From: Gemmatimonadales bacterium
Lineage (GTDB): Bacteria > Gemmatimonadota > Gemmatimonadetes > Gemmatimonadales > GWC2-71-9
DNA length: 64,000 nt
NCBI GenBank assembly: GCA_035491815.1
Contig: DATJKA010000047.1
Coordinates: 12,496-76,495 of the forward strand
Direction of reading: 5' to 3'
Part shown: in pieces, positions 22,964-64,000 of the stretch
How positions within the stretch are numbered: position 1 is the stretch's first letter
How the letters are laid out: each line of letters opens with the position of its first letter
The notes under the pieces: generated by a model
Databases searched by the model: none
Told to the model about the DNA's origin: nothing
What the model saw: only the letters and a program-made list of their open reading frames with translations
Made by a program: the position numbers and the translations under genes

Positions 22964-23641
22964 GTGTCACCCACAGAAGTGCTGCAAAAAGTCCCGCTGT
23001 TCAGCCAGCTCGCCGCCGCCGATCTCCAGCGCGTGGTGGAAGTTGCGCGCGACCGTGCCTATCCCAAGAACTCCGTCATCCTGTTCGAAGACGATCCCGG
23101 TGACGCGCTCTACGTCGTCGCGAAAGGCCAGGTCAAAGTCGTGCTCATCGGTGAGGACGGCCGCGAGGTCATTCTCTCCGTACTCGGCGAGGGCGAGTTC
23201 TTCGGCGAGATGGCATTGATCGACGACGAGCCGCGCTCCGCGCACGTCATCGCCATGGAAGACTCGACGCTGCTCGTGCTGCGCCGCGAAGATTTTCAGG
23301 GAATCCTCGAGCACTCGGCGGGCATCGCGCTCGCGCTCCTGCGGGAGTTGTCGCGCCGCTTGCGGCGCGTGGACGAAAAAGTCGGCAGCCTCGTCCTGCT
23401 CGACGTGCACGGCCGCGTTGCGCAGCTGCTGCTCGACCTCGCCGACGAAACAGACGGCCAGCGCATCACGCGCCGCCTGACTCATCACACCATCGCGCAG
23501 ATGATCGGCAGCTCGCGCGAGACCGTCTCGCGCACGATGCGGGAGCTCGTCGATAAGGGATTGATCGACGTCAGTCGCAAGGACATCGTGATCCGCGATC
23601 GCGGCGCCTTGGAGCAAGCAGCGGGACGTGGCGGCGCGTGA
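22964..23641 (+). CDS. Crp/Fnr-family transcriptional regulator (cNMP-binding + HTH)
   Basis: [38 protein letters not shown] (cNMP-binding domain) and a C-terminal [21 protein letters not shown]. Confidence 0.88.
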
Positions 23642-23718
23642 GGCGCGTCACGACCTGCGGGTGAGGCCCAAGCTTGTTCTACATCACTAATTGCCAGTAA
23701 CTTAGCGCGAGTTTCGGC

Positions 23719-24597
23719 GTGCCGACACGCATGGCCTACACGGTGACCTTCTGGGGGACCCGGGGGAGCATTCCGACTCCTGGAGCCGCCACCGCGCGCT
23801 ACGGCGGCAACACGCCGTGTGTGGCAGTGGAGGGCGCTGGCGGCCAACTGGTCGTGCTGGACGCCGGCACGGGGATCCGGGCCTTGGGGCTCGACCTGGT
23901 CGCGAAACAAAATGGCGCCGCGAAAGTCGAAATTCTGCTGTCGCATGCCCATTGGGACCACATTCAGGGGTTGCCGCACTTCAAACCGTTTTTCGCGCCG
24001 GGGAATACGGTGCGCATTTGGGGATCGCGCCAGGGGACGACGTCCCTCGAAGCGATCCTCCGGCAACAAATGGATCCGGCGGTGTTTCCCGTGCCGCTCG
24101 ACGCGCTGTCGGCACAGCTGACGGTGCAGCAGGTCGACACGGACGAGTTTTCGATCGGCGAATTCCGGGTGCGCACGATCAAGCTGCGGCATCCCGGTAC
24201 GACGTTGGGATTCCGGCTCACGCCCGCCACAGTTGGCGGACCGAGCATGGCATACGTGACGGACAATGAGCTGGGCGCCGGCGGTCAGTACCGTGTGGCC
24301 AAGACCTGGCGCCGCGATTTCGTGGCGTTTCTGAAAGGCGTCGATCTGCTGATTCACGACGCGATGTACACGCCCGAGGAGCTCGAGCAGCACCGTGGCT
24401 GGGGGCATTCGACGTATGAGGAAGCCGTGACCCTGGCGCAGGATGCCGGCGCGAAGCAGCTCGTGCTGTTTCACCACGAGCCCGAGCACGGCGACGAAGC
24501 AATGGACGAGCTAGTGGCGGCGGCGCGCAGGTTTGCAAAGGCGCGCGGTGGACTCGCAGTGGATGCCGCCCGGGAAGGTATGCAGGTGACCCTGTGA
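23719..24597 (+). CDS. MBL-fold metallo-hydrolase
   Basis: VTFWGTRGSIPTPG, VVLDAGTG, LLSHAHWDHIQGLPHF and LVLFHHEPEH. Confidence 0.8.
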   Translation: MPTRMAYTVTFWGTRGSIPTPGAATARYGGNTPCVAVEGAGGQLVVLDAGTGIRALGLDLVAKQNGAAKVEILLSHAHWDHIQGLPHFKPFFAPGNTVRIWGSRQGTTSLEAILRQQMDPAVFPVPLDALSAQLTVQQVDTDEFSIGEFRVRTIKLRHPGTTLGFRLTPATVGGPSMAYVTDNELGAGGQYRVAKTWRRDFVAFLKGVDLLIHDAMYTPEELEQHRGWGHSTYEEAVTLAQDAGAKQLVLFHHEPEHGDEAMDELVAAARRFAKARGGLAVDAAREGMQVTL

Positions 24598-24611
24598 CAC
24601 GAGGAGTAGCT

Positions 24612-25307
24612 ATGCGCGCGCGTGCAGTGCTGACGGTCTTCACCCTGGTTCCGGCCCTTCTGGGGGCGCAGCAGCGCGCCCAGGACACTCGGCCAGGCAT
24701 CGCCGTGTTCCCCTTCAACAACGGCGGCTCGTACGGCCAGGGCAAGGAAGACTTCGATGCCTTGGAGCGCGGCATCGCCGGGATGATGATCTCCGAGCTC
24801 GCGCAGAATCCGGCGGCGCGCGTCGTGGAGCGCCAGGAAGTACAGCGCCTCCTCGACGAGCAGAACCTCGGCACCGCCGGTCGCGTCGATCCGCAGACGG
24901 CCGCGAAAGTCGGCAAGCTCGTGGGCGCGCGCTACGCCGTGATGGGCACGTTCATCGATTTCTACGGCGACTTCCGCATCGACGTGCGGCTCGTCAACGT
25001 CGAGACGGGCGAAATCGTGAAGACGGAATCCGATAAGATGCAGCGCGATCATTTGTTCGACATGATCCGCAACATCTCGGCACAGCTGATGAAGGATGCC
25101 AACCTTCCCGCCCTGCAGCGCCAGGCATCCGACCAGCGGATGGGGCGCCAGGTGCCGACCGAGGCCCTGACCTATTACTCGCGGGCGCTGCTGTTCCATG
25201 ACCGCGGGCAGAAGGACAAAGCGATCGACATGTTCCAGCATGCGATCGACATCTTCCCGAACTACACCGAGGCGCAGGAAGGCCTGCAGCGCGAAAAGGC
25301 GTCCTAA
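24612..25307 (+). CDS. secreted protein with TolB-N/CsgG-like domain and a C-terminal TPR-like segment
   Basis: ATG 24612 is preceded by GAGGAG. Signal peptide MRARAVLTVFTLVPALLGAQQ. GIAVFPFNN...VVERQEVQRLLDEQNL...GARYAVMGTFIDFYGDFRIDVRLVNVETGEIV matches the IAVLPF-type TolB-N-like domain. Confidence 0.65.
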   Translation: MRARAVLTVFTLVPALLGAQQRAQDTRPGIAVFPFNNGGSYGQGKEDFDALERGIAGMMISELAQNPAARVVERQEVQRLLDEQNLGTAGRVDPQTAAKVGKLVGARYAVMGTFIDFYGDFRIDVRLVNVETGEIVKTESDKMQRDHLFDMIRNISAQLMKDANLPALQRQASDQRMGRQVPTEALTYYSRALLFHDRGQKDKAIDMFQHAIDIFPNYTEAQEGLQREKAS

Positions 25308-25480
25308 CGAACCCGGTCACGCGGCTCGGTAGATCGACGGCGCGCCGGCTCTCCCGCCTGGGAGCGCTGGCGCGCTTCGGCTTTGGCGCCCTGCGCGCGG
25401 CGTTCCGGCTCACCGCCGCGGGCCGCGCGGTCTCGTTCCGGATCGCGGTCACCCAGATCCGTTTCACCGCGGTCAACGCC

Positions 25481-26083
25481 ATGGGCCTCGTCGCACTGCT
25501 GTCCGGCATTCTGTCGTTTCTCGTGATCTCGCAGGCGACGCGCGAGCTGGGTCGCTTCGGCGCAACCGACTACATCGGCACCCTCATCGTCGTGGCGATC
25601 GTGCGCGAGCTCGGTCCGCTGCTCACGGCCCTCGTCGTCGTCGGCCGCTCGGGCACCGCGATCGCCGCCGAGCTCGCGACCAACCAGGTGATGGGTGAGG
25701 TGCGGGCGCTCGAGGCGATCGGCATCGACCCGAAGCAGTACCTCGTGCTGCCGCGCTTCCTCGGCTCGCTGGTGAGCGTCTTCGCGCTGCTCGTGCTGTT
25801 CGATCTCGTCGCGATCATGGCCGGGTTTGCGGCCGCGCGCTTCAACGGCCTGCCGGGCCCGCGCTATTTCCAGATCGTGCTGCAGTCCCTGAGCAGCCGC
25901 GACGTGTGGCTCACGATCTTCAAGGCCATCGCATTCGGTGCGATCGTCGGCGTCGTGCCCAGCTACTTCGGGCTGTCCGTCCGCCGCGCGTCGACCGAAA
26001 TCCCGATTGCGGCGAGTCGCGCGGTCGTCGCCGCGCTCGTGGGCGTTTTTCTTTGCTCGGCGCTGTTCGTGGCCCTGTCATGA
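25481..26083 (+). CDS. mlaE: MlaE-family ABC transporter permease (minimal extent; true start probably upstream)
   Basis: Motifs GTLIVVAIVRELGPLLTALVVVGRSGTAIAAELATNQVMGEVRALEAIGIDP and YLVLPRFLG. MlaE-like sequence continues in frame upstream to about 25310-25360 with no ATG/GTG/TTG (see finding). Confidence 0.8.
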   Translation: MGLVALLSGILSFLVISQATRELGRFGATDYIGTLIVVAIVRELGPLLTALVVVGRSGTAIAAELATNQVMGEVRALEAIGIDPKQYLVLPRFLGSLVSVFALLVLFDLVAIMAGFAAARFNGLPGPRYFQIVLQSLSSRDVWLTIFKAIAFGAIVGVVPSYFGLSVRRASTEIPIAASRAVVAALVGVFLCSALFVALS

Positions 26084-26763
26084 CCATGCCGGCACCCTTG
26101 GCGTTCGAGGCGCTGCCGATCGCGCGTCATGCGTCCGCCCCTTTTTCACTCGACGTCCCGGAACGGCGCACCGTCGCGGTGCTCGGCGATGAAGACTCGG
26201 GGATCGGGCGGCTCGGCGGCTACGCGCTTGGCCTGGAGCGCCCCGCGACGGGTCGCGCGCTGGTCTTCGGTACGGTGGTGGCGAGCTTGCCGGAGCCCGA
26301 CCGATTGGCCTTCCGCCGCCGTGTGGGATACCTTCCCGCCGGCGACGGTCTACTGCAAAATCTTTCCCTGCGTGACAATGTGGCGCTGCCGTTGCGCTTC
26401 GGCAGCGGCGCGAGCCCTCGCGACATCGAGGGCCGCGTCACCGTCATGTTGACGGCGCTGCGGCTCATGAGCGCGGCGGCGCTGCGGCCGGCCCAGGCGA
26501 ACGAAGAAGAACGGCGGCGAGCGGCACTCGCGCGAGCGATTGCGTTCGACCCGGCGCTGCTGGTGTTGGAACAGCCGTTCGACGGACTGACCGCGCGCGT
26601 GGCGTCGGAGCTGCTGGAGATCGCGCGCGGCGGCGAATCGGCGGAGGGCGCCCGCCGCACGATTTTCATCACCGGACAGGAGATCCCGCCGATCCTCCTG
26701 CGCCGGGTCGACCACGTGTACCGGCTCACGCGTGCAGGGGTGCTCGAGCTCGAGACAGTCTAA
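26080..26763 (+). CDS. MlaF-like ABC nucleotide-binding-domain protein with all catalytic motifs degenerate (pseudo-ATPase)
   Basis: ATG 26080 overlaps the mlaE TGA (ATGA). The ABC-NBD layout is recognisable (RRRVGYLPAGDGLLQNLSLRDNVALPL, RRRAALARAIAFDPALLVLEQPFDGL). Walker A reads GDEDSGIGR, the signature motif reads ANEEE, Walker B reads LLVLEQ and the H-loop reads ITGQ. Confidence 0.7.
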   Translation: MTMPAPLAFEALPIARHASAPFSLDVPERRTVAVLGDEDSGIGRLGGYALGLERPATGRALVFGTVVASLPEPDRLAFRRRVGYLPAGDGLLQNLSLRDNVALPLRFGSGASPRDIEGRVTVMLTALRLMSAAALRPAQANEEERRRAALARAIAFDPALLVLEQPFDGLTARVASELLEIARGGESAEGARRTIFITGQEIPPILLRRVDHVYRLTRAGVLELETV

Positions 26764-26786
26764 GCGGCCCGGGGGACGAGGGACGG

Positions 26787-27701
26787 GTGGAAACGCGGCA
26801 GGACTTTTACGTCGGACTCTTCATCGTCGTCACGATTGCACTCGTGATCGGCGCCCTGATCGCGACCAGCGGTTGGGGCGAGCGCCGCTACGACCTCTAC
26901 CTGCGCGTGTCGAGCGCCGACGGCATCTCTCAAGGGACTGCGGTCGTGATCGAGGGACTCGACGTCGGACAGGTGACGAGCATTTCGCCGCGCGTCGATT
27001 CGCTGACGCGCCGCATTTCGTTCGTCGCCAAGATGTCCGTGAAGGAGCGGTTCCAGGACGGCTCCAGCCTGCAGCTTCCCATCGGCACGCGCGCCGACCT
27101 CGTTCAGGCGAGCCAGATCTCGCCGGCCGTGTCGATTCGGCTGATCCTGCCCGACTCGGTCCGCGGCCATCGCGTCTACCTGCACGCGGGCGACACGCTC
27201 GATTCACACCGCAAAGGCAATGCGCTCGACGCGGTCGCGGAGGTCGCTGATCAGCTGTCGCAGCGCGTGCAGGAGATGGTGCGCACCGCAACGCAGACGC
27301 TCGTCCGCGTCCAATCCACATTGCGCGACGTCACACCCGAGGTCGAGCGCACGCTCACCGGTGTGGCGTCGACCATGGGCCGGCTCGATTCGATGGTGAA
27401 CCGTTTCTCGCAGCGCGGCCTCGCGGATTCGGTGGCGACCGCCGTGGCGAACACCAACCGCTTGCTGCTCCGCCTCGACAGTCTCGCCCGCGAGGCGCAT
27501 TCGCTCGCGACCGAGAACCGCAGCGATCTGCGCGCGACCGTCGCGAACCTCACCGAGGCGTCGCGGCAGCTCAACAACTTCGTGGATCAGATGTCGCGGC
27601 GGCCGTTCCGCGCGCTCACCGGCGTCAAGCCATTGCCGCCGCTGCAACGCGACTCCGGGCGCGCCGGGTCCGACAGCGGCCGCGTGGGAGCGAAGCCGTG
27701 A
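26787..27701 (+). CDS. mlaD: MlaD/MCE-family substrate-binding protein
   Basis: N-terminal anchor METRQDFYVGLFIVVTIALVIGALI, an MCE domain (GISQGTAVVIEGLDVGQVTSI) and a helical C-terminal region. Confidence 0.8.
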   Translation: METRQDFYVGLFIVVTIALVIGALIATSGWGERRYDLYLRVSSADGISQGTAVVIEGLDVGQVTSISPRVDSLTRRISFVAKMSVKERFQDGSSLQLPIGTRADLVQASQISPAVSIRLILPDSVRGHRVYLHAGDTLDSHRKGNALDAVAEVADQLSQRVQEMVRTATQTLVRVQSTLRDVTPEVERTLTGVASTMGRLDSMVNRFSQRGLADSVATAVANTNRLLLRLDSLAREAHSLATENRSDLRATVANLTEASRQLNNFVDQMSRRPFRALTGVKPLPPLQRDSGRAGSDSGRVGAKP

Positions 27702-29653
27702 GATACGTCCTCCTGCATCCGCCGCAGTGGCATCCCGACGCCGTGGCCCCCGCGCTCGAGACGGCGCAAGTCGAGGCGCGCGTCGTGCGCCATCTCAAAG
27801 AGCTCGTCGTCGCGGACGATCGGCCCACCGTGTTCCTGCTCGATGCCGACAGCCGCTCCGTTTTCCCCGTCGACGTGATGCGGTCGTTCGTGGACGCGGG
27901 CGGCGCCATCGTGGCGCTGGGACGCGAGGGCGAGATGGACGTGCCGGAAGGGCTGCCGACGGAATTCCTGTCCGGGTTCCTGACGCATCCCACGAGCCCG
28001 CGCCGCCTGCTCGTCGCGGTACGGGCCGGCTTCCGTGAAGCCGCGGCGCGCGCCGAGACCGCGCGGGCGCGCGGCGAGGCGGCGCAGCGCGCGCGGGAGA
28101 TCGGCGAGCTCACCCGCATCGGCGTCGCCCTCGGCACCGAGCGCGACATCAAGACGCTGCTCGACCTCATCCTCACGCAGTCGCGCCGCATCACGCAATC
28201 GGATGCCGGCAGCCTGTATCTCGTCGAAGTGAACGCGAACGGCGACAAACGGCTGCGCTTCCGGCTGGCGCAGACCTACTCCAAGCCGGAGGCCCCGTTC
28301 GTCGAGCACACGATTCCCGTGGATCGCGGCAGCCTGGCCGGCTACTGCGCCGTGACCGGCGATCCGCTCGTCATCGACGACGCCTATTTCCTGCCGCCGG
28401 ACGTCGAGTACACGATCAATCGCTCGTTCGACGAGCGCTACGGCTATCGCACGAAGTCGATGCTCGTGATCCCGATGAAGGATCACAAAGACGAGATCAT
28501 CGGCGTGCTGCAGCTCATCAACCGCAAGCGCAACTTCGAGGCCGTGCTCGCGACGCCGGCCGATGTCGACAAACAGGTCGTGCCCTACTCCAAGCGCACG
28601 GTCGAGCTCGTGACCGCGCTCGCGGGACAGGCCGCCGTCGCCATCGAGAACGGGCGGCTGTACGAAGACATCGAAAAACTGTTCGAGGGGTTCGTCCTCG
28701 CCGCGGTCCACGCGATCGAGCAGCGCGATCCCACCACCTACGGTCACTCGGGCCGCGTGGCCGGCATGACCGTCGGGCTGGCCGAAGTCGTCGATCGCGC
28801 GCCGGACGGGCCGTACCGCCTCATCAAGTTCTCGCGCGAGCAGCTCAAGGAGATTCGCTACGCCGCCCTGCTCCACGATTTCGGCAAGGTCGGCGTGCGC
28901 GAGCAAGTGCTGATCAAGGCGAAAAAGCTCTATCCCTCCGATCTCAGTCTCGTGCGGCATCGCCACGCGTTCATCCGTCGCACGGCTGAGCGCGAGTTCT
29001 GGCGCAAGCGCGCCGAATTCCTGGAGGAGAACGGCAAGCGGGGCTACGACGGCTTCATCAAGGAGCTGGAGGAAGCGCACCAGGAAGAGCTTGGGGAGCT
29101 CGATCGCTTCCTCGAGATCGTGCTGGCGGCCAACGAGCCGACGATTCTTCCCGACGGCAGCTTCGACGAGCTGAAGGTGTGGTCGAAGCGCACGTACTGC
29201 GGTCTCGACGGGAACACCGAGCCGTTCCTCTCACCCGACGAGGTGCGTTACCTCACGATTCGCAAGGGGAGCCTGGACGACGCAGAGCGGCACGAGATCG
29301 AGAGCCACGTCACGCACACGTACCAGTTCCTGCAGCGCATTCCGTGGACACGCGAGCTGCAGCAGATCCCGCTCATCGCGTACGGGCATCACGAGAAAAT
29401 GGACGGGCGCGGCTACCCGCGGCGCATCACCGCAGACGCGATTCCGATCCAGACGCGCATGATGACCATCAGCGACATCTACGACGCGCTGACGGCGCAG
29501 GATCGGCCCTACAAGCGCGCCGTGTCGAACGACCGCGCGCTCGACATCCTCACGACGGAAGTCAAAGAGGGCCAGCTCGACGCCGATCTCTTCAAGCTCT
29601 TCATCGATGCCAAGGTCTTCCAGCGGCAGCTGAACGAAGCCGACGCTACCTAG
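27698..29653 (+). CDS. GAF-domain HD-GYP phosphodiesterase with a possible receiver-like N-domain
   Basis: GTG 27698 overlaps the mlaD TGA (GTGA). GAF segment SDAGSLYLVE...MLVIPMKDHKDEIIGVLQLINR. HD motif AALLHDFGKVGV. GYP motif GHHEKMDGRGYP followed by ISDIYDALTAQDRPYK. Confidence 0.85.
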   Translation: MRYVLLHPPQWHPDAVAPALETAQVEARVVRHLKELVVADDRPTVFLLDADSRSVFPVDVMRSFVDAGGAIVALGREGEMDVPEGLPTEFLSGFLTHPTSPRRLLVAVRAGFREAAARAETARARGEAAQRAREIGELTRIGVALGTERDIKTLLDLILTQSRRITQSDAGSLYLVEVNANGDKRLRFRLAQTYSKPEAPFVEHTIPVDRGSLAGYCAVTGDPLVIDDAYFLPPDVEYTINRSFDERYGYRTKSMLVIPMKDHKDEIIGVLQLINRKRNFEAVLATPADVDKQVVPYSKRTVELVTALAGQAAVAIENGRLYEDIEKLFEGFVLAAVHAIEQRDPTTYGHSGRVAGMTVGLAEVVDRAPDGPYRLIKFSREQLKEIRYAALLHDFGKVGVREQVLIKAKKLYPSDLSLVRHRHAFIRRTAEREFWRKRAEFLEENGKRGYDGFIKELEEAHQEELGELDRFLEIVLAANEPTILPDGSFDELKVWSKRTYCGLDGNTEPFLSPDEVRYLTIRKGSLDDAERHEIESHVTHTYQFLQRIPWTRELQQIPLIAYGHHEKMDGRGYPRRITADAIPIQTRMMTISDIYDALTAQDRPYKRAVSNDRALDILTTEVKEGQLDADLFKLFIDAKVFQRQLNEADAT

Positions 29654-63832: not shown

Positions 63833-64000
63833 GTGAGTTCCGTCCACCTGGCCAGCGTGACCGGTCCGCGGGGCACGGACGACGTCTTCCCGTTCACCGT
63901 CCCGGCGATCCGCAGTCTTCGGTCCCTCGACTTTCCTACGAGTGTCACGTTCTTCGTCGGAGAAAACGGCTCCGGGAAGTCGACCCTGCTGGAGGGCCTG
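63833..64000 (+). CDS. P-loop ATPase, N-terminal fragment (continues beyond window)
   Basis: The GTG 63833 frame stays open to the window end. It ends in [19 protein letters not shown], a Walker A in a context typical of small stand-alone AAA/ABC-like predicted ATPases. Confidence 0.55.

What the first reader, a model, noticed from the sequence alone, without database searches (positions are those of the whole stretch)
26080..26763. MlaF homologue in the mla operon has lost every ATPase motif
The gene sits exactly where mlaF belongs, between mlaE and mlaD, with an ATGA overlap onto mlaE. It keeps the ABC-NBD scaffold (Q-loop region GYLPAGDGLLQNLSLRDNVALPL; D-loop region FDGL). The catalytic elements are all changed: Walker A GxxGxGK[ST] reads GDEDSGIGR (nt 26185-26211, no Lys); signature LSGGQ reads ANEEE; Walker B hhhhDE reads LLVLEQ; the H-loop His reads Gln (ITGQ). 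The frame is intact with no stops, so it looks like a maintained pseudo-ATPase rather than a decaying pseudogene. An Mla-type transporter without a functional energising subunit in cis is unusual.
Basis: partly seen in the sequence, partly recalled or inferred. Interest (0 to 1): 0.6.

Follow-up and report, generated by a model that had tools for sequence, protein, structure and literature searches.

The report
Motif-less ABC ATPase fossil in Mla operon
A lipid-transporter operon of soil Gemmatimonadota carries, where its ATP-burning motor subunit should be, a well-folded and strongly conserved copy that has lost every residue needed to bind or split ATP, so this transporter must work without its own motor or borrow one.

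Summary
ORF 26080-26763 (227 aa) lies between mlaE (ATGA overlap) and an MCE/mlaD gene. It is a real ABC nucleotide-binding domain: Pfam ABC_tran is above cut-off, the AF2 model has pLDDT 94, and TM is about 0.83 to MlaF and LolD. It has no Walker A Lys/Ser-Thr, no Q-loop Gln, no LSGGQ, no Walker B Asp-Glu, no D-loop Asp and no H-loop His.

It is not a decaying gene. The same E-NBD-D trio occurs in 71 Gemmatimonadota species genomes and 76 soil-metagenome contigs. None of the 126 full-length copies has GK[ST]. Pairwise dN/dS is 0.07-0.13, the same as for mlaE and mlaD. The replacement residues are themselves conserved: YLPAGDG, E143 and R146-R147 are invariant. The best-conserved block is the Q-loop/helical-subdomain region that docks on the permease in canonical transporters.

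No canonical NBD lies within 10 kb in any of the 71 genome loci.

Most likely this is an MlaF-derived pseudo-ATPase kept as the structural, possibly ligand-gated, cytoplasmic subunit of an MlaE-MCE lipid conduit. Energisation in trans by a paralogous MlaF could not be excluded. I found no published description. I rate it a new variant of a known kind.

The parts
26080..26763 (+). Pseudo-NBD, an MlaF-derived ABC nucleotide-binding domain of 227 aa with no catalytic motifs
   Evidence: Pfam ABC_tran 33.5 bits. NCBIfam MlaF equivalog 63 bits against a 441 cut-off. AF2 pLDDT 94.1, pTM 0.90. Foldseek TM 0.83-0.85 to LolD, MlaF and MetN. dN/dS 0.07-0.13.
26185..26211 (+). Vestigial Walker A / P-loop, GDEDSGIGR (residues 36-44)
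   Evidence: Aligns to MlaF GPSGIGKTT. None of 65 orthologues has GK[ST]. G36, S40 and G41 are conserved, D37/E38 are mostly acidic, and position 44 is variable.
26329..26349 (+). Q-loop region YLPAGDG (residues 84-90). The Gln is replaced by Ala87. This segment is the invariant core of the best-conserved block, residues 76-108.
   Evidence: Y84, P86 and A87 are found in 65 of 65 orthologues. Block conservation is shown.
26491..26520 (+). Vestigial signature motif AQANEEERRR (residues 138-147)
   Evidence: Aligns to MlaF SELSGGMARR. E143, R146 and R147 are invariant in 65 of 65 orthologues.
26557..26583 (+). Vestigial Walker B LLVLEQPFD (residues 160-168). The canonical Asp-Glu pair is replaced by Glu-Gln, and the D-loop that follows reads GLT.
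   Evidence: E164 occurs in 57 of 65 orthologues, Q165 in 52 of 65, and F167 and G169 are invariant.
26668..26682 (+). Vestigial H-loop ITGQE (residues 197-201), with Gln in place of His
   Evidence: alignment. Q200 occurs in 52 of 65 orthologues; His is present in 5 of 65.
25334..26083 (+). mlaE permease. The conserved coding sequence begins at or before 25334. The first canonical start is ATG 25481. CTG 25358 is a candidate start.
   Evidence: Pfam MlaE 174.8 bits. The frame is open upstream. tblastn aligns from residue 1-4 of the extended form in 66 loci. Start-codon survey.
26787..27701 (+). MCE/MlaD-type substrate-binding subunit of 304 aa: TM segment, MCE domain and a long helical C-terminal region
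   Evidence: Pfam MlaD 31.4 bits against a 25.1 cut-off. TIGR00996 Mce family 41 bits. Weak coiled-coil-type hits over residues 145-280. Present in 66 of 71 loci.
24594..25307 (+). Conserved upstream neighbour: a secreted CsgG/LpoB-like plus TPR protein. A functional link to the transporter is not shown.
   Evidence: Pfam CsgG 68.7 bits plus TPR. Present in 63 of 71 loci. Its start overlaps the preceding MBL-fold gene.
27698..29653 (+). Conserved downstream neighbour: a GAF plus HD(-GYP-type) protein whose start overlaps the mlaD stop. A functional link is not shown.
   Evidence: Pfam HD_5 109.7 bits and GAF 59.8 bits. Present in 60 of 71 loci. GTGA overlap at 27698-27701.

Best explanation
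The gene encodes an MlaF-derived pseudo-ATPase. It is an intact ABC nucleotide-binding-domain fold whose ATP-binding and ATP-hydrolysing residues have all been replaced, largely by conserved acidic residues. It has been kept across Gemmatimonadota as the cytoplasmic subunit of an MlaE2-(MCE)6 lipid transporter.

Shown:
- It is a folded NBD.
- It has none of the catalytic motifs.
- It is under purifying selection as strong as that on mlaE and mlaD.
- It is translationally coupled to mlaE.
- Its best-conserved surface is the Q-loop/helical-subdomain block.

Inferred:
- That block still docks on the MlaE coupling helix. The helix motif AELxxxxxxGExxALExxGIDP is retained in this MlaE.
- The protein therefore occupies both NBD sites of the MlaE dimer as a structural clamp.
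- It cannot bind nucleotide, because it has no P-loop Lys/Ser-Thr and carries Glu at the positions that face the phosphates.
- The complex therefore runs without an ATP cycle of its own. Most likely it is a facilitated, gradient-driven lipid conduit through the long-helix MCE subunit. The acidic ex-ATP pocket (invariant E143 and R146-R147) may serve as a fixed dimer latch or as a site for a cation or other ligand that gates it.
For: - Fold: Pfam PF00005 above cut-off. AF2 pLDDT 94.1, pTM 0.90. Foldseek TM 0.83-0.85 to LolD, MlaF, MetN and MceG.
- MlaF origin: the family profile's best PDB hit is A. baumannii MlaF (95.7 bits, E 2e-26, positions 19-220). The gene order E-NBD-D matches mlaEFD.
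- Motif loss. None of the 126 full-length copies has GK[ST].
- Selection: dN/dS is 0.07-0.13 for the NBD, 0.05-0.12 for MlaE and 0.05-0.14 for MlaD in close pairs. YLPAGDG, E143, R146 and R147 are invariant. The conservation maximum lies at residues 76-108.
- No cis ATPase: no ORF with both Walker A and a signature motif lies within 10 kb in any of the 71 Gemmatimonadota genome loci, or in the 64-kb window apart from a cut-off GENGSGKS gene at 63959.
- Heterodimer argument (inference from the established ABC sandwich-dimer mechanism): this subunit has lost both its Walker A/B half and its signature half. Pairing it with a canonical MlaF would therefore leave no consensus ATP site.
- Precedent for ATPase-free MCE systems: PqiAB and LetAB (my own knowledge).
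- Long MlaD forms are the majority type (PMC10665443).
Against: - No complex model or experiment shows that the protein binds MlaE. Multimer prediction was not possible.
- Gemmatimonadetes genomes hold 1-4 MlaE/MlaD sets. Two genomes have two clustered MlaF calls each (PMC10665443 Suppl. Dataset 1). A working MlaF paralogue may therefore exist in the same cells and act in trans.
- The invariant E143/R146/R147 and the conserved acidic P-loop argue that something still happens at the former ATP site, so 'purely structural' may be too little.
- All known MlaE-type systems that have been studied need ATP hydrolysis. A passive MlaE conduit has no experimental precedent.
- G. aurantiaca appears to have MlaE-MlaD pairs with consecutive accession numbers and no MlaF call. 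The NBD may therefore be dispensable or absent in some relatives. I could not check this.
Confidence: 0.5

Rival explanations
1. Energised in trans. A canonical MlaF encoded with another Mla/MCE operon of the same genome supplies ATP hydrolysis, as MceG does for several mycobacterial Mce systems. The pseudo-NBD would then act as an assembly factor, a placeholder, a competitor or one half of a heterodimer.
For: Grasekamp 2023 Suppl. Dataset 1 lists 2-4 MlaE and up to 2 clustered MlaF per Gemmatimonadetes genome. MceG is shared by Mce1 and Mce4 and also stabilises them (PMC9947336).
Against: A single mlaE gene implies a symmetric MlaE2 with two identical docking sites. The pseudo-NBD's docking block is its most conserved part, and the gene is translationally coupled to mlaE, which favours 2:2 occupancy. 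A heterodimer would have no consensus ATP site, because both the Walker half and the signature half are lost. I could not show a canonical MlaF in any genome that carries this gene. The closest canonical NBD in the representative library is from Planctomycetota.
Confidence: 0.22
2. Ligand sensor. The remodelled pocket binds something other than ATP in the canonical way, such as a divalent cation, a polyamine or another nucleotide or second messenger held in a non-P-loop mode. Binding drives NBD closure and so gates the MlaE/MCE conduit.
For: The substituted residues are conserved rather than drifting: E143 is invariant, positions 37-39 and 142-144 are acidic, and R146/R147 are invariant. A GAF plus HD(-GYP-type) gene is translationally coupled downstream in 60 of 71 loci.
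Against: No known ligand motif was recognised. A PilZ-like DxSxxG reading of the P-loop does not fit. P-loop position 44 and the H-loop position vary. The link to the GAF-HD gene may be no more than conserved synteny.
Confidence: 0.18
3. The gene has been repurposed away from transport, for example as a regulatory partner of neighbouring genes, or it is a decaying pseudogene or an annotation artefact.
For: Two genome loci (L067, L070) show the gene split across frames.
Against: dN/dS is about 0.1. The frame is intact in 126 full-length copies. The E-NBD-D order is strict. L067 also has a frame break in mlaE, which points to assembly indels.
Confidence: 0.04

Closest known systems
MlaF, the ATPase of MlaFEDB (E. 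coli 6XBD/7CGN, A. baumannii 7D06/6Z5U)
   Same: ABC NBD fold. It is the best profile match (95.7 bits). Foldseek TM is 0.84. It occupies the same operon slot next to mlaE and mlaD. It shares the ...DNVA(L/Y)PLR... and RRAALARAIA..P.L motifs.
   Different: Only 24-30% identical. All of Walker A, Q-loop Gln, signature, Walker B, D-loop and H-loop are lost. At 227 aa against 269 aa, it lacks the C-terminal 'handshake' extension. The cluster has no MlaB/STAS partner. It scores 63 bits against the 441-bit equivalog cut-off.
MceG (Mkl) with mycobacterial Mce1-4 operons
   Same: MCE-type lipid transporters whose own operon supplies no working ATPase. The NBD also matters for complex stability (PMC9947336).
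   Different: MceG is a canonical, active ATPase encoded elsewhere. Mce operons carry no NBD gene at all. Here a motif-less NBD is retained in cis.
Heterodimeric ABC transporters with one degenerate ATP site (TM287/288, PatAB, TAP, CFTR, ABCG5/G8)
   Same: Non-catalytic NBD elements are maintained by selection and have structural or allosteric roles (PMC7756269).
   Different: Those keep one consensus site, keep the Walker A Lys and still bind ATP at the degenerate site. Here a single NBD gene has lost both halves of the composite site, so no consensus site can form.
PqiABC and LetAB MCE systems
   Same: MCE tunnels that bridge the envelope and have no ABC ATPase (my own knowledge).
   Different: Their membrane partner is PqiA or LetA, not MlaE, and no NBD-fold subunit is present.
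Three-component MlaEFD with long MlaD (Veillonella parvula, Grasekamp 2023, PMC10665443)
   Same: Gene order E-F-D with overlapping stops and starts. The MlaD is long and helical. There is no MlaA, MlaB or MlaC.
   Different: The V. parvula MlaF is described there as closely resembling proteobacterial MlaF.

Membership tests
ABC transporter nucleotide-binding domain (fold, PF00005) | Sequence match above the Pfam gathering score, with the RecA-like plus helical subdomain fold | tested here: met
   33.5 bits against 25. AF2 pLDDT 94. Foldseek TM 0.83-0.85 and probability 1.00 to LolD, MlaF and MetN.
Catalytically competent ABC ATPase | Walker A GxxGxGK[ST] | tested here: not met
   The sequence is GDEDSGIGR. 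None of 126 full-length copies has GK[ST].
Catalytically competent ABC ATPase | Signature LSGGQ | tested here: not met
   The sequence is ANEEE, with E143 invariant.
Catalytically competent ABC ATPase | Walker B hhhhD-E with the catalytic Glu, plus the D-loop | tested here: not met
   The sequence is LLVLEQ followed by PFDGLT. The pair is E-Q in 52 of 65 orthologues.
Catalytically competent ABC ATPase | Q-loop Gln and H-loop His | tested here: not met
   Ala87 is found in 65 of 65 orthologues. Q200 is found in 52 of 65, and His in only 5 of 65.
Catalytically competent ABC ATPase | Measured ATP binding or hydrolysis | not testable with these tools
   Needs purified protein.
MlaF (NCBIfam NF008809 equivalog) | Score at or above the curated cut-off of 441 bits | tested here: not met
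   63.1 bits.
MlaF (NCBIfam NF008809 equivalog) | Encoded beside mlaE and mlaD | tested here: met
   ATGA overlap with mlaE, and mlaD lies 23 nt downstream. The same order is seen in 71 genome loci and 59 metagenome loci.
MlaF (NCBIfam NF008809 equivalog) | C-terminal extension that clasps the partner MlaF and binds MlaB | tested here: not met
   The protein ends about 25 residues after the H-loop. The alignment to MlaF stops at MlaF residues 218-228 of 269-273. No STAS gene is among the cluster genes scanned.
Mla/MCE ABC-type transporter (system level) | MlaE-family permease plus an MCE-domain protein | tested here: met
   PF02405 174.8 bits and PF02470 31.4 bits.
Heterodimeric ABC with one degenerate site | A second, canonical NBD partner that gives one consensus site | tested here: not met
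   No canonical NBD lies within 10 kb in the 71 genome loci or in the window. Whole genomes could not be searched.
Pseudogene | Frame disruption or relaxed selection | tested here: not met
   The frame is intact and dN/dS is 0.07-0.13.

The most novel reading that the evidence does not exclude
Across the phylum, an MlaE-type permease with its MCE tunnel works with no ATP cycle at all. A fossil NBD, whose ATP pocket has been refilled with conserved acidic and basic residues, acts as a built-in 'nucleotide-mimic' latch or a ligand gate. This would be the first natural ATP-independent member of the MlaFE (type VIII) ABC transporter class. It would also be a natural experiment on whether ATP sets the direction of Mla lipid flow.
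Probability: 0.3. Interest if true: 0.8.

Novelty: new variant of a known kind. Interest (0 to 1): 0.6.

Why it matters
- **Energetics of Mla transport.** The direction and energetics of Mla/MCE lipid transport are still disputed. A natural, conserved MlaE-MCE system whose NBD cannot use ATP would show what the permease and tunnel can do without a motor. It would also show what the NBD contributes apart from hydrolysis, such as assembly, stability or gating.
- **A rare kind of pseudoenzyme.** In this bacterial ABC subunit both halves of the composite ATP site are lost but the fold is kept. The degenerate ABC sites described so far always keep one consensus site.
- **Annotation.** Hundreds of database entries for this family are labelled 'MlaF ATPase subunit' or 'ATP-binding protein'. 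Function calls made from those annotations would be wrong.

Tried and rejected
1. **Second canonical mlaF in the same genomes.** A protein search with the closest canonical NBD in the representative library (P0150, 39% identity) returned Planctomycetota and Verrucomicrobiota proteins, not Gemmatimonadota.
2. **Mapping the family to accessions in the Grasekamp dataset.** The listing of cluster members returned only generic names and unrelated accessions. I therefore cannot say which of that paper's Gemmatimonadetes 'MlaF_Cluster' calls, or which uncalled middle genes (KPJ97200, OGU05226), are this protein.
3. **Metagenome scan with an MlaE profile, to find a sister clade with canonical MlaF.** It returned only 70-100% orthologues, all with the pseudo-NBD.
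4. **Homodimer model.** The afdb50 fold library was unavailable.
5. **PilZ-like motif.** I tried reading the P-loop remnant as DxSxxG. The spacing does not fit, so I dropped the idea.
6. **Family of origin from scores alone.** Single-sequence scores do not separate MlaF from CysA, LolD and FtsE. Only the family profile puts MlaF first, and by a modest margin.
7. **Literature.** Searches on MlaF plus Gemmatimonadetes, degenerate NBDs in MCE systems, and pseudo-ATPase ABC proteins found no description of this family.

Full report
**What is at the coordinates.** The window is 67% G+C. ORF 26080-26763 on the + strand encodes 227 aa with no internal stop. Its ATG overlaps the stop of the upstream gene in an ATGA.
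- The upstream gene is an MlaE-family permease (Pfam PF02405, 174.8 bits).
- The downstream gene, 26787-27701, is an MCE/MlaD protein. It scores 31.4 bits on PF02470 and 41 bits on the TIGR00996 Mce family, and has a long helical C-terminal part.
- The ORF itself passes Pfam ABC_tran (33.5 bits against a cut-off of 25).
- It falls far below every NCBIfam equivalog cut-off. MlaF scores 63 against 441, and CysA, FtsE and LolD score similarly.

**The motifs.** HMMER alignments to E. coli MlaF and, with the family profile, to A. baumannii MlaF give the following.

| Motif | MlaF | This protein |
|---|---|---|
| Walker A | GPSG(I/T)GKTT | GDEDSGIGR |
| Q-loop | LFQSGAL | LPAGDGL |
| Signature | LSGGM | ANEEE |
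| Walker B | (F/Y)DEPF | LEQPF |
| D-loop | GQD | GLT |
| H-loop | SHD | GQE |

The Walker A remnant has no Lys and no Ser/Thr. The two alignments place a 2-residue gap differently, but neither gives a conserved basic residue. Two motifs it counted as kept, the Q-loop Gln and the D-loop Asp, are also gone.

**It is a folded NBD.** AlphaFold2 on a 58-sequence family alignment gives pLDDT 94.1 and pTM 0.90. Foldseek against the PDB gives probability 1.00 and TM 0.83-0.85 to LolD, MlaF, MetN, FtsE and MceG. The family profile's best solved relative is A. baumannii MlaF (95.7 bits, E 2e-26, covering positions 19-220). DppD, LolD, P. aeruginosa MlaF, MetN and E. coli MlaF follow closely. Descent from MlaF is therefore the best reading, but it rests mainly on gene order.

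**It is a maintained family, not a wreck.**
- *Genome loci.* A scan of one genome per GTDB species found 71 Gemmatimonadota loci at 51-92% identity. All have the order MlaE-NBD-MlaD wherever the contig allows.
- *Metagenome loci.* A scan seeded with MlaE added 80 soil contigs, of which 76 carry the NBD. The other four end at or just after mlaE.
- *Motifs across copies.* None of the 65 + 61 full-length copies has GK[ST].
- *Conserved replacements.* The replacement residues are themselves conserved. Y84-L-P-A-G-D-G90, E143, R146, R147, F167 and G169 are invariant or nearly so. D37/E38 and E142/E144 are mostly acidic. The H-loop position is Gln in 52 of 65 copies and His in 5.
- *Selection.* Nei-Gojobori dN/dS in close pairs is 0.07-0.13 for the NBD, 0.05-0.12 for mlaE and 0.05-0.14 for mlaD.
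- *Family boundaries.* In a library of 1.8 billion 50%-identity representatives, the family is three full-length clusters plus fragments (248-202 bits). Scores then drop to generic NBDs at 127 bits or less. The family is compact and, as far as named sources show, confined to Gemmatimonadota.

**Where conservation sits.** The strongest block is residues 76-108, LAFRRRVGYLPAGDGLLQNLSLRDNVALPLRFGS. This is the Q-loop and the start of the helical subdomain. In canonical ABC transporters this region forms the groove for the permease's coupling helix (established knowledge). The MlaE here keeps the family's coupling-helix motif, AELATNQVMGEVRALEAIGIDP, matching E. coli [22 protein letters not shown] (E. 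coli sequence from memory). From this I infer, but have not shown, that the protein still docks on MlaE.

**Is there another motor?**
- No ORF with both a Walker A and a signature motif lies within 10 kb of the trio in any Gemmatimonadota genome locus.
- None lies in the 64-kb window either, apart from a truncated GENGSGKS gene at the window's end.
- Whole genomes could not be searched.
- Supplementary Dataset 1 of Grasekamp et al. 2023 (PMC10665443) lists 1-4 MlaE/MlaD per Gemmatimonadetes genome:
  - G. aurantiaca and G. phototrophica have two MlaE, two MlaD and no clustered MlaF.
  - Gemmatimonas sp. SG8_28 and RBG_16_66_8 each have two clustered MlaF calls. Each also has one E-x-D trio whose middle gene was not called.
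- I could not map these accessions onto this family.
- A paralogous MlaF-like gene in the same cell is therefore plausible for some members. Its catalytic state is unknown.
- Because this subunit lacks both the Walker half and the signature half, a heterodimer with a canonical MlaF would have no consensus ATP site. This is an inference from the sandwich-dimer mechanism.

**Mechanism.**
- Most likely (about 0.5): a dead NBD is kept as the cytoplasmic clamp of an MlaE2-MCE6 complex. The complex then moves lipid without its own ATP cycle, and the remodelled pocket acts as a fixed latch or a ligand site.
- Rivals: energisation in trans by a paralogous MlaF, as MceG does for Mce1 and Mce4 (PMC9947336; about 0.2); a ligand-gated sensor role (about 0.2); or decay or repurposing (below 0.05).
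- The ATPase-free PqiAB and LetAB systems show that MCE tunnels can work without an ABC motor (my own knowledge). No MlaE-type example is known.

**Comparison and novelty.** The protein works like, and probably descends from, MlaF. It fails every catalytic membership test and the equivalog score. It also lacks MlaF's C-terminal extension and any MlaB partner. It differs from the well-known degenerate-site ABC heterodimers, which always keep one consensus site and still bind ATP. Searches of the held literature found no description of it. I rate it a new variant of a known kind, with interest about 0.6. The loss of motifs and the selection are solid. The mechanism is open and directly testable.

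Noticed in passing
window 25202-25481 (mlaE 5' end): The conserved N-terminal ~50 aa of MlaE (STARRLSRLGALARFGFGAL..., from 25334) has no in-frame ATG, GTG or TTG before ATG 25481, yet it aligns with all orthologues. Distant orthologues start with GTG at 'V(I/T)AP...'. A second start-capable position, 'SQ[M/V/L]GALARF', is ATG, GTG or TTG in about 20 loci and is CTG (25358-25360) here and in the closest relatives. This suggests a non-canonical start, or reinitiation after the upstream TAA at 25305-25307.
   Followed up: partly
window 22964-29653: A seven-gene cluster is conserved in 56-66 of the 71 Gemmatimonadota loci: Crp-like regulator, MBL-fold hydrolase, secreted CsgG/LpoB-like plus TPR protein, MlaE, pseudo-NBD, MCE/MlaD, and a GAF plus HD(-GYP-type) protein. 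Stop and start codons overlap at 24594 and 27698. Whether the flanking genes work with the transporter is unknown.
   Followed up: partly
L067:10001-10664 (OZ252291.1, complete chromosome) and L070:10001-10638: The pseudo-NBD is split across two reading frames in these two genomes. In L067 mlaE is split as well. This is either assembly indels or real decay in those lineages.
   Followed up: no
database entries P0003, P0004, P0271 and others: JGI names members of this motif-less family 'ABC-type transporter Mla ... ATPase subunit MlaF'. NCBI names them 'ATP-binding cassette domain-containing protein'. Neither name flags the loss of the ATP site.
   Followed up: no
representative-library proteins P0253, P0215, P0255: These are other MlaF-like NBDs with partly degenerate motifs. 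P0253 has LSMAE, MDDP and SQS. P0215 has LDNP and no H-loop His. Both keep the Walker A GK[ST]. Erosion of MlaF motifs may therefore have happened more than once.
   Followed up: no
PMC10665443 Supplementary Dataset 1: Gemmatimonas aurantiaca T-27 is listed with two MlaE/MlaD pairs that have consecutive accession numbers (BAH39616/17, BAH40897/98) and no clustered MlaF. These may be MlaED pairs with no NBD gene between them.
   Followed up: no
window 26080-26763: The 227-aa protein contains no lysine at all, against 28 Arg. This is extreme even for a 67% G+C genome.
   Followed up: no
window 63959-64000: A P-loop gene ([14 protein letters not shown]) starts at the very end of the window and is cut off. 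It is the only other ABC/AAA-like Walker A of that type in the window. Its identity was not determined.
   Followed up: no
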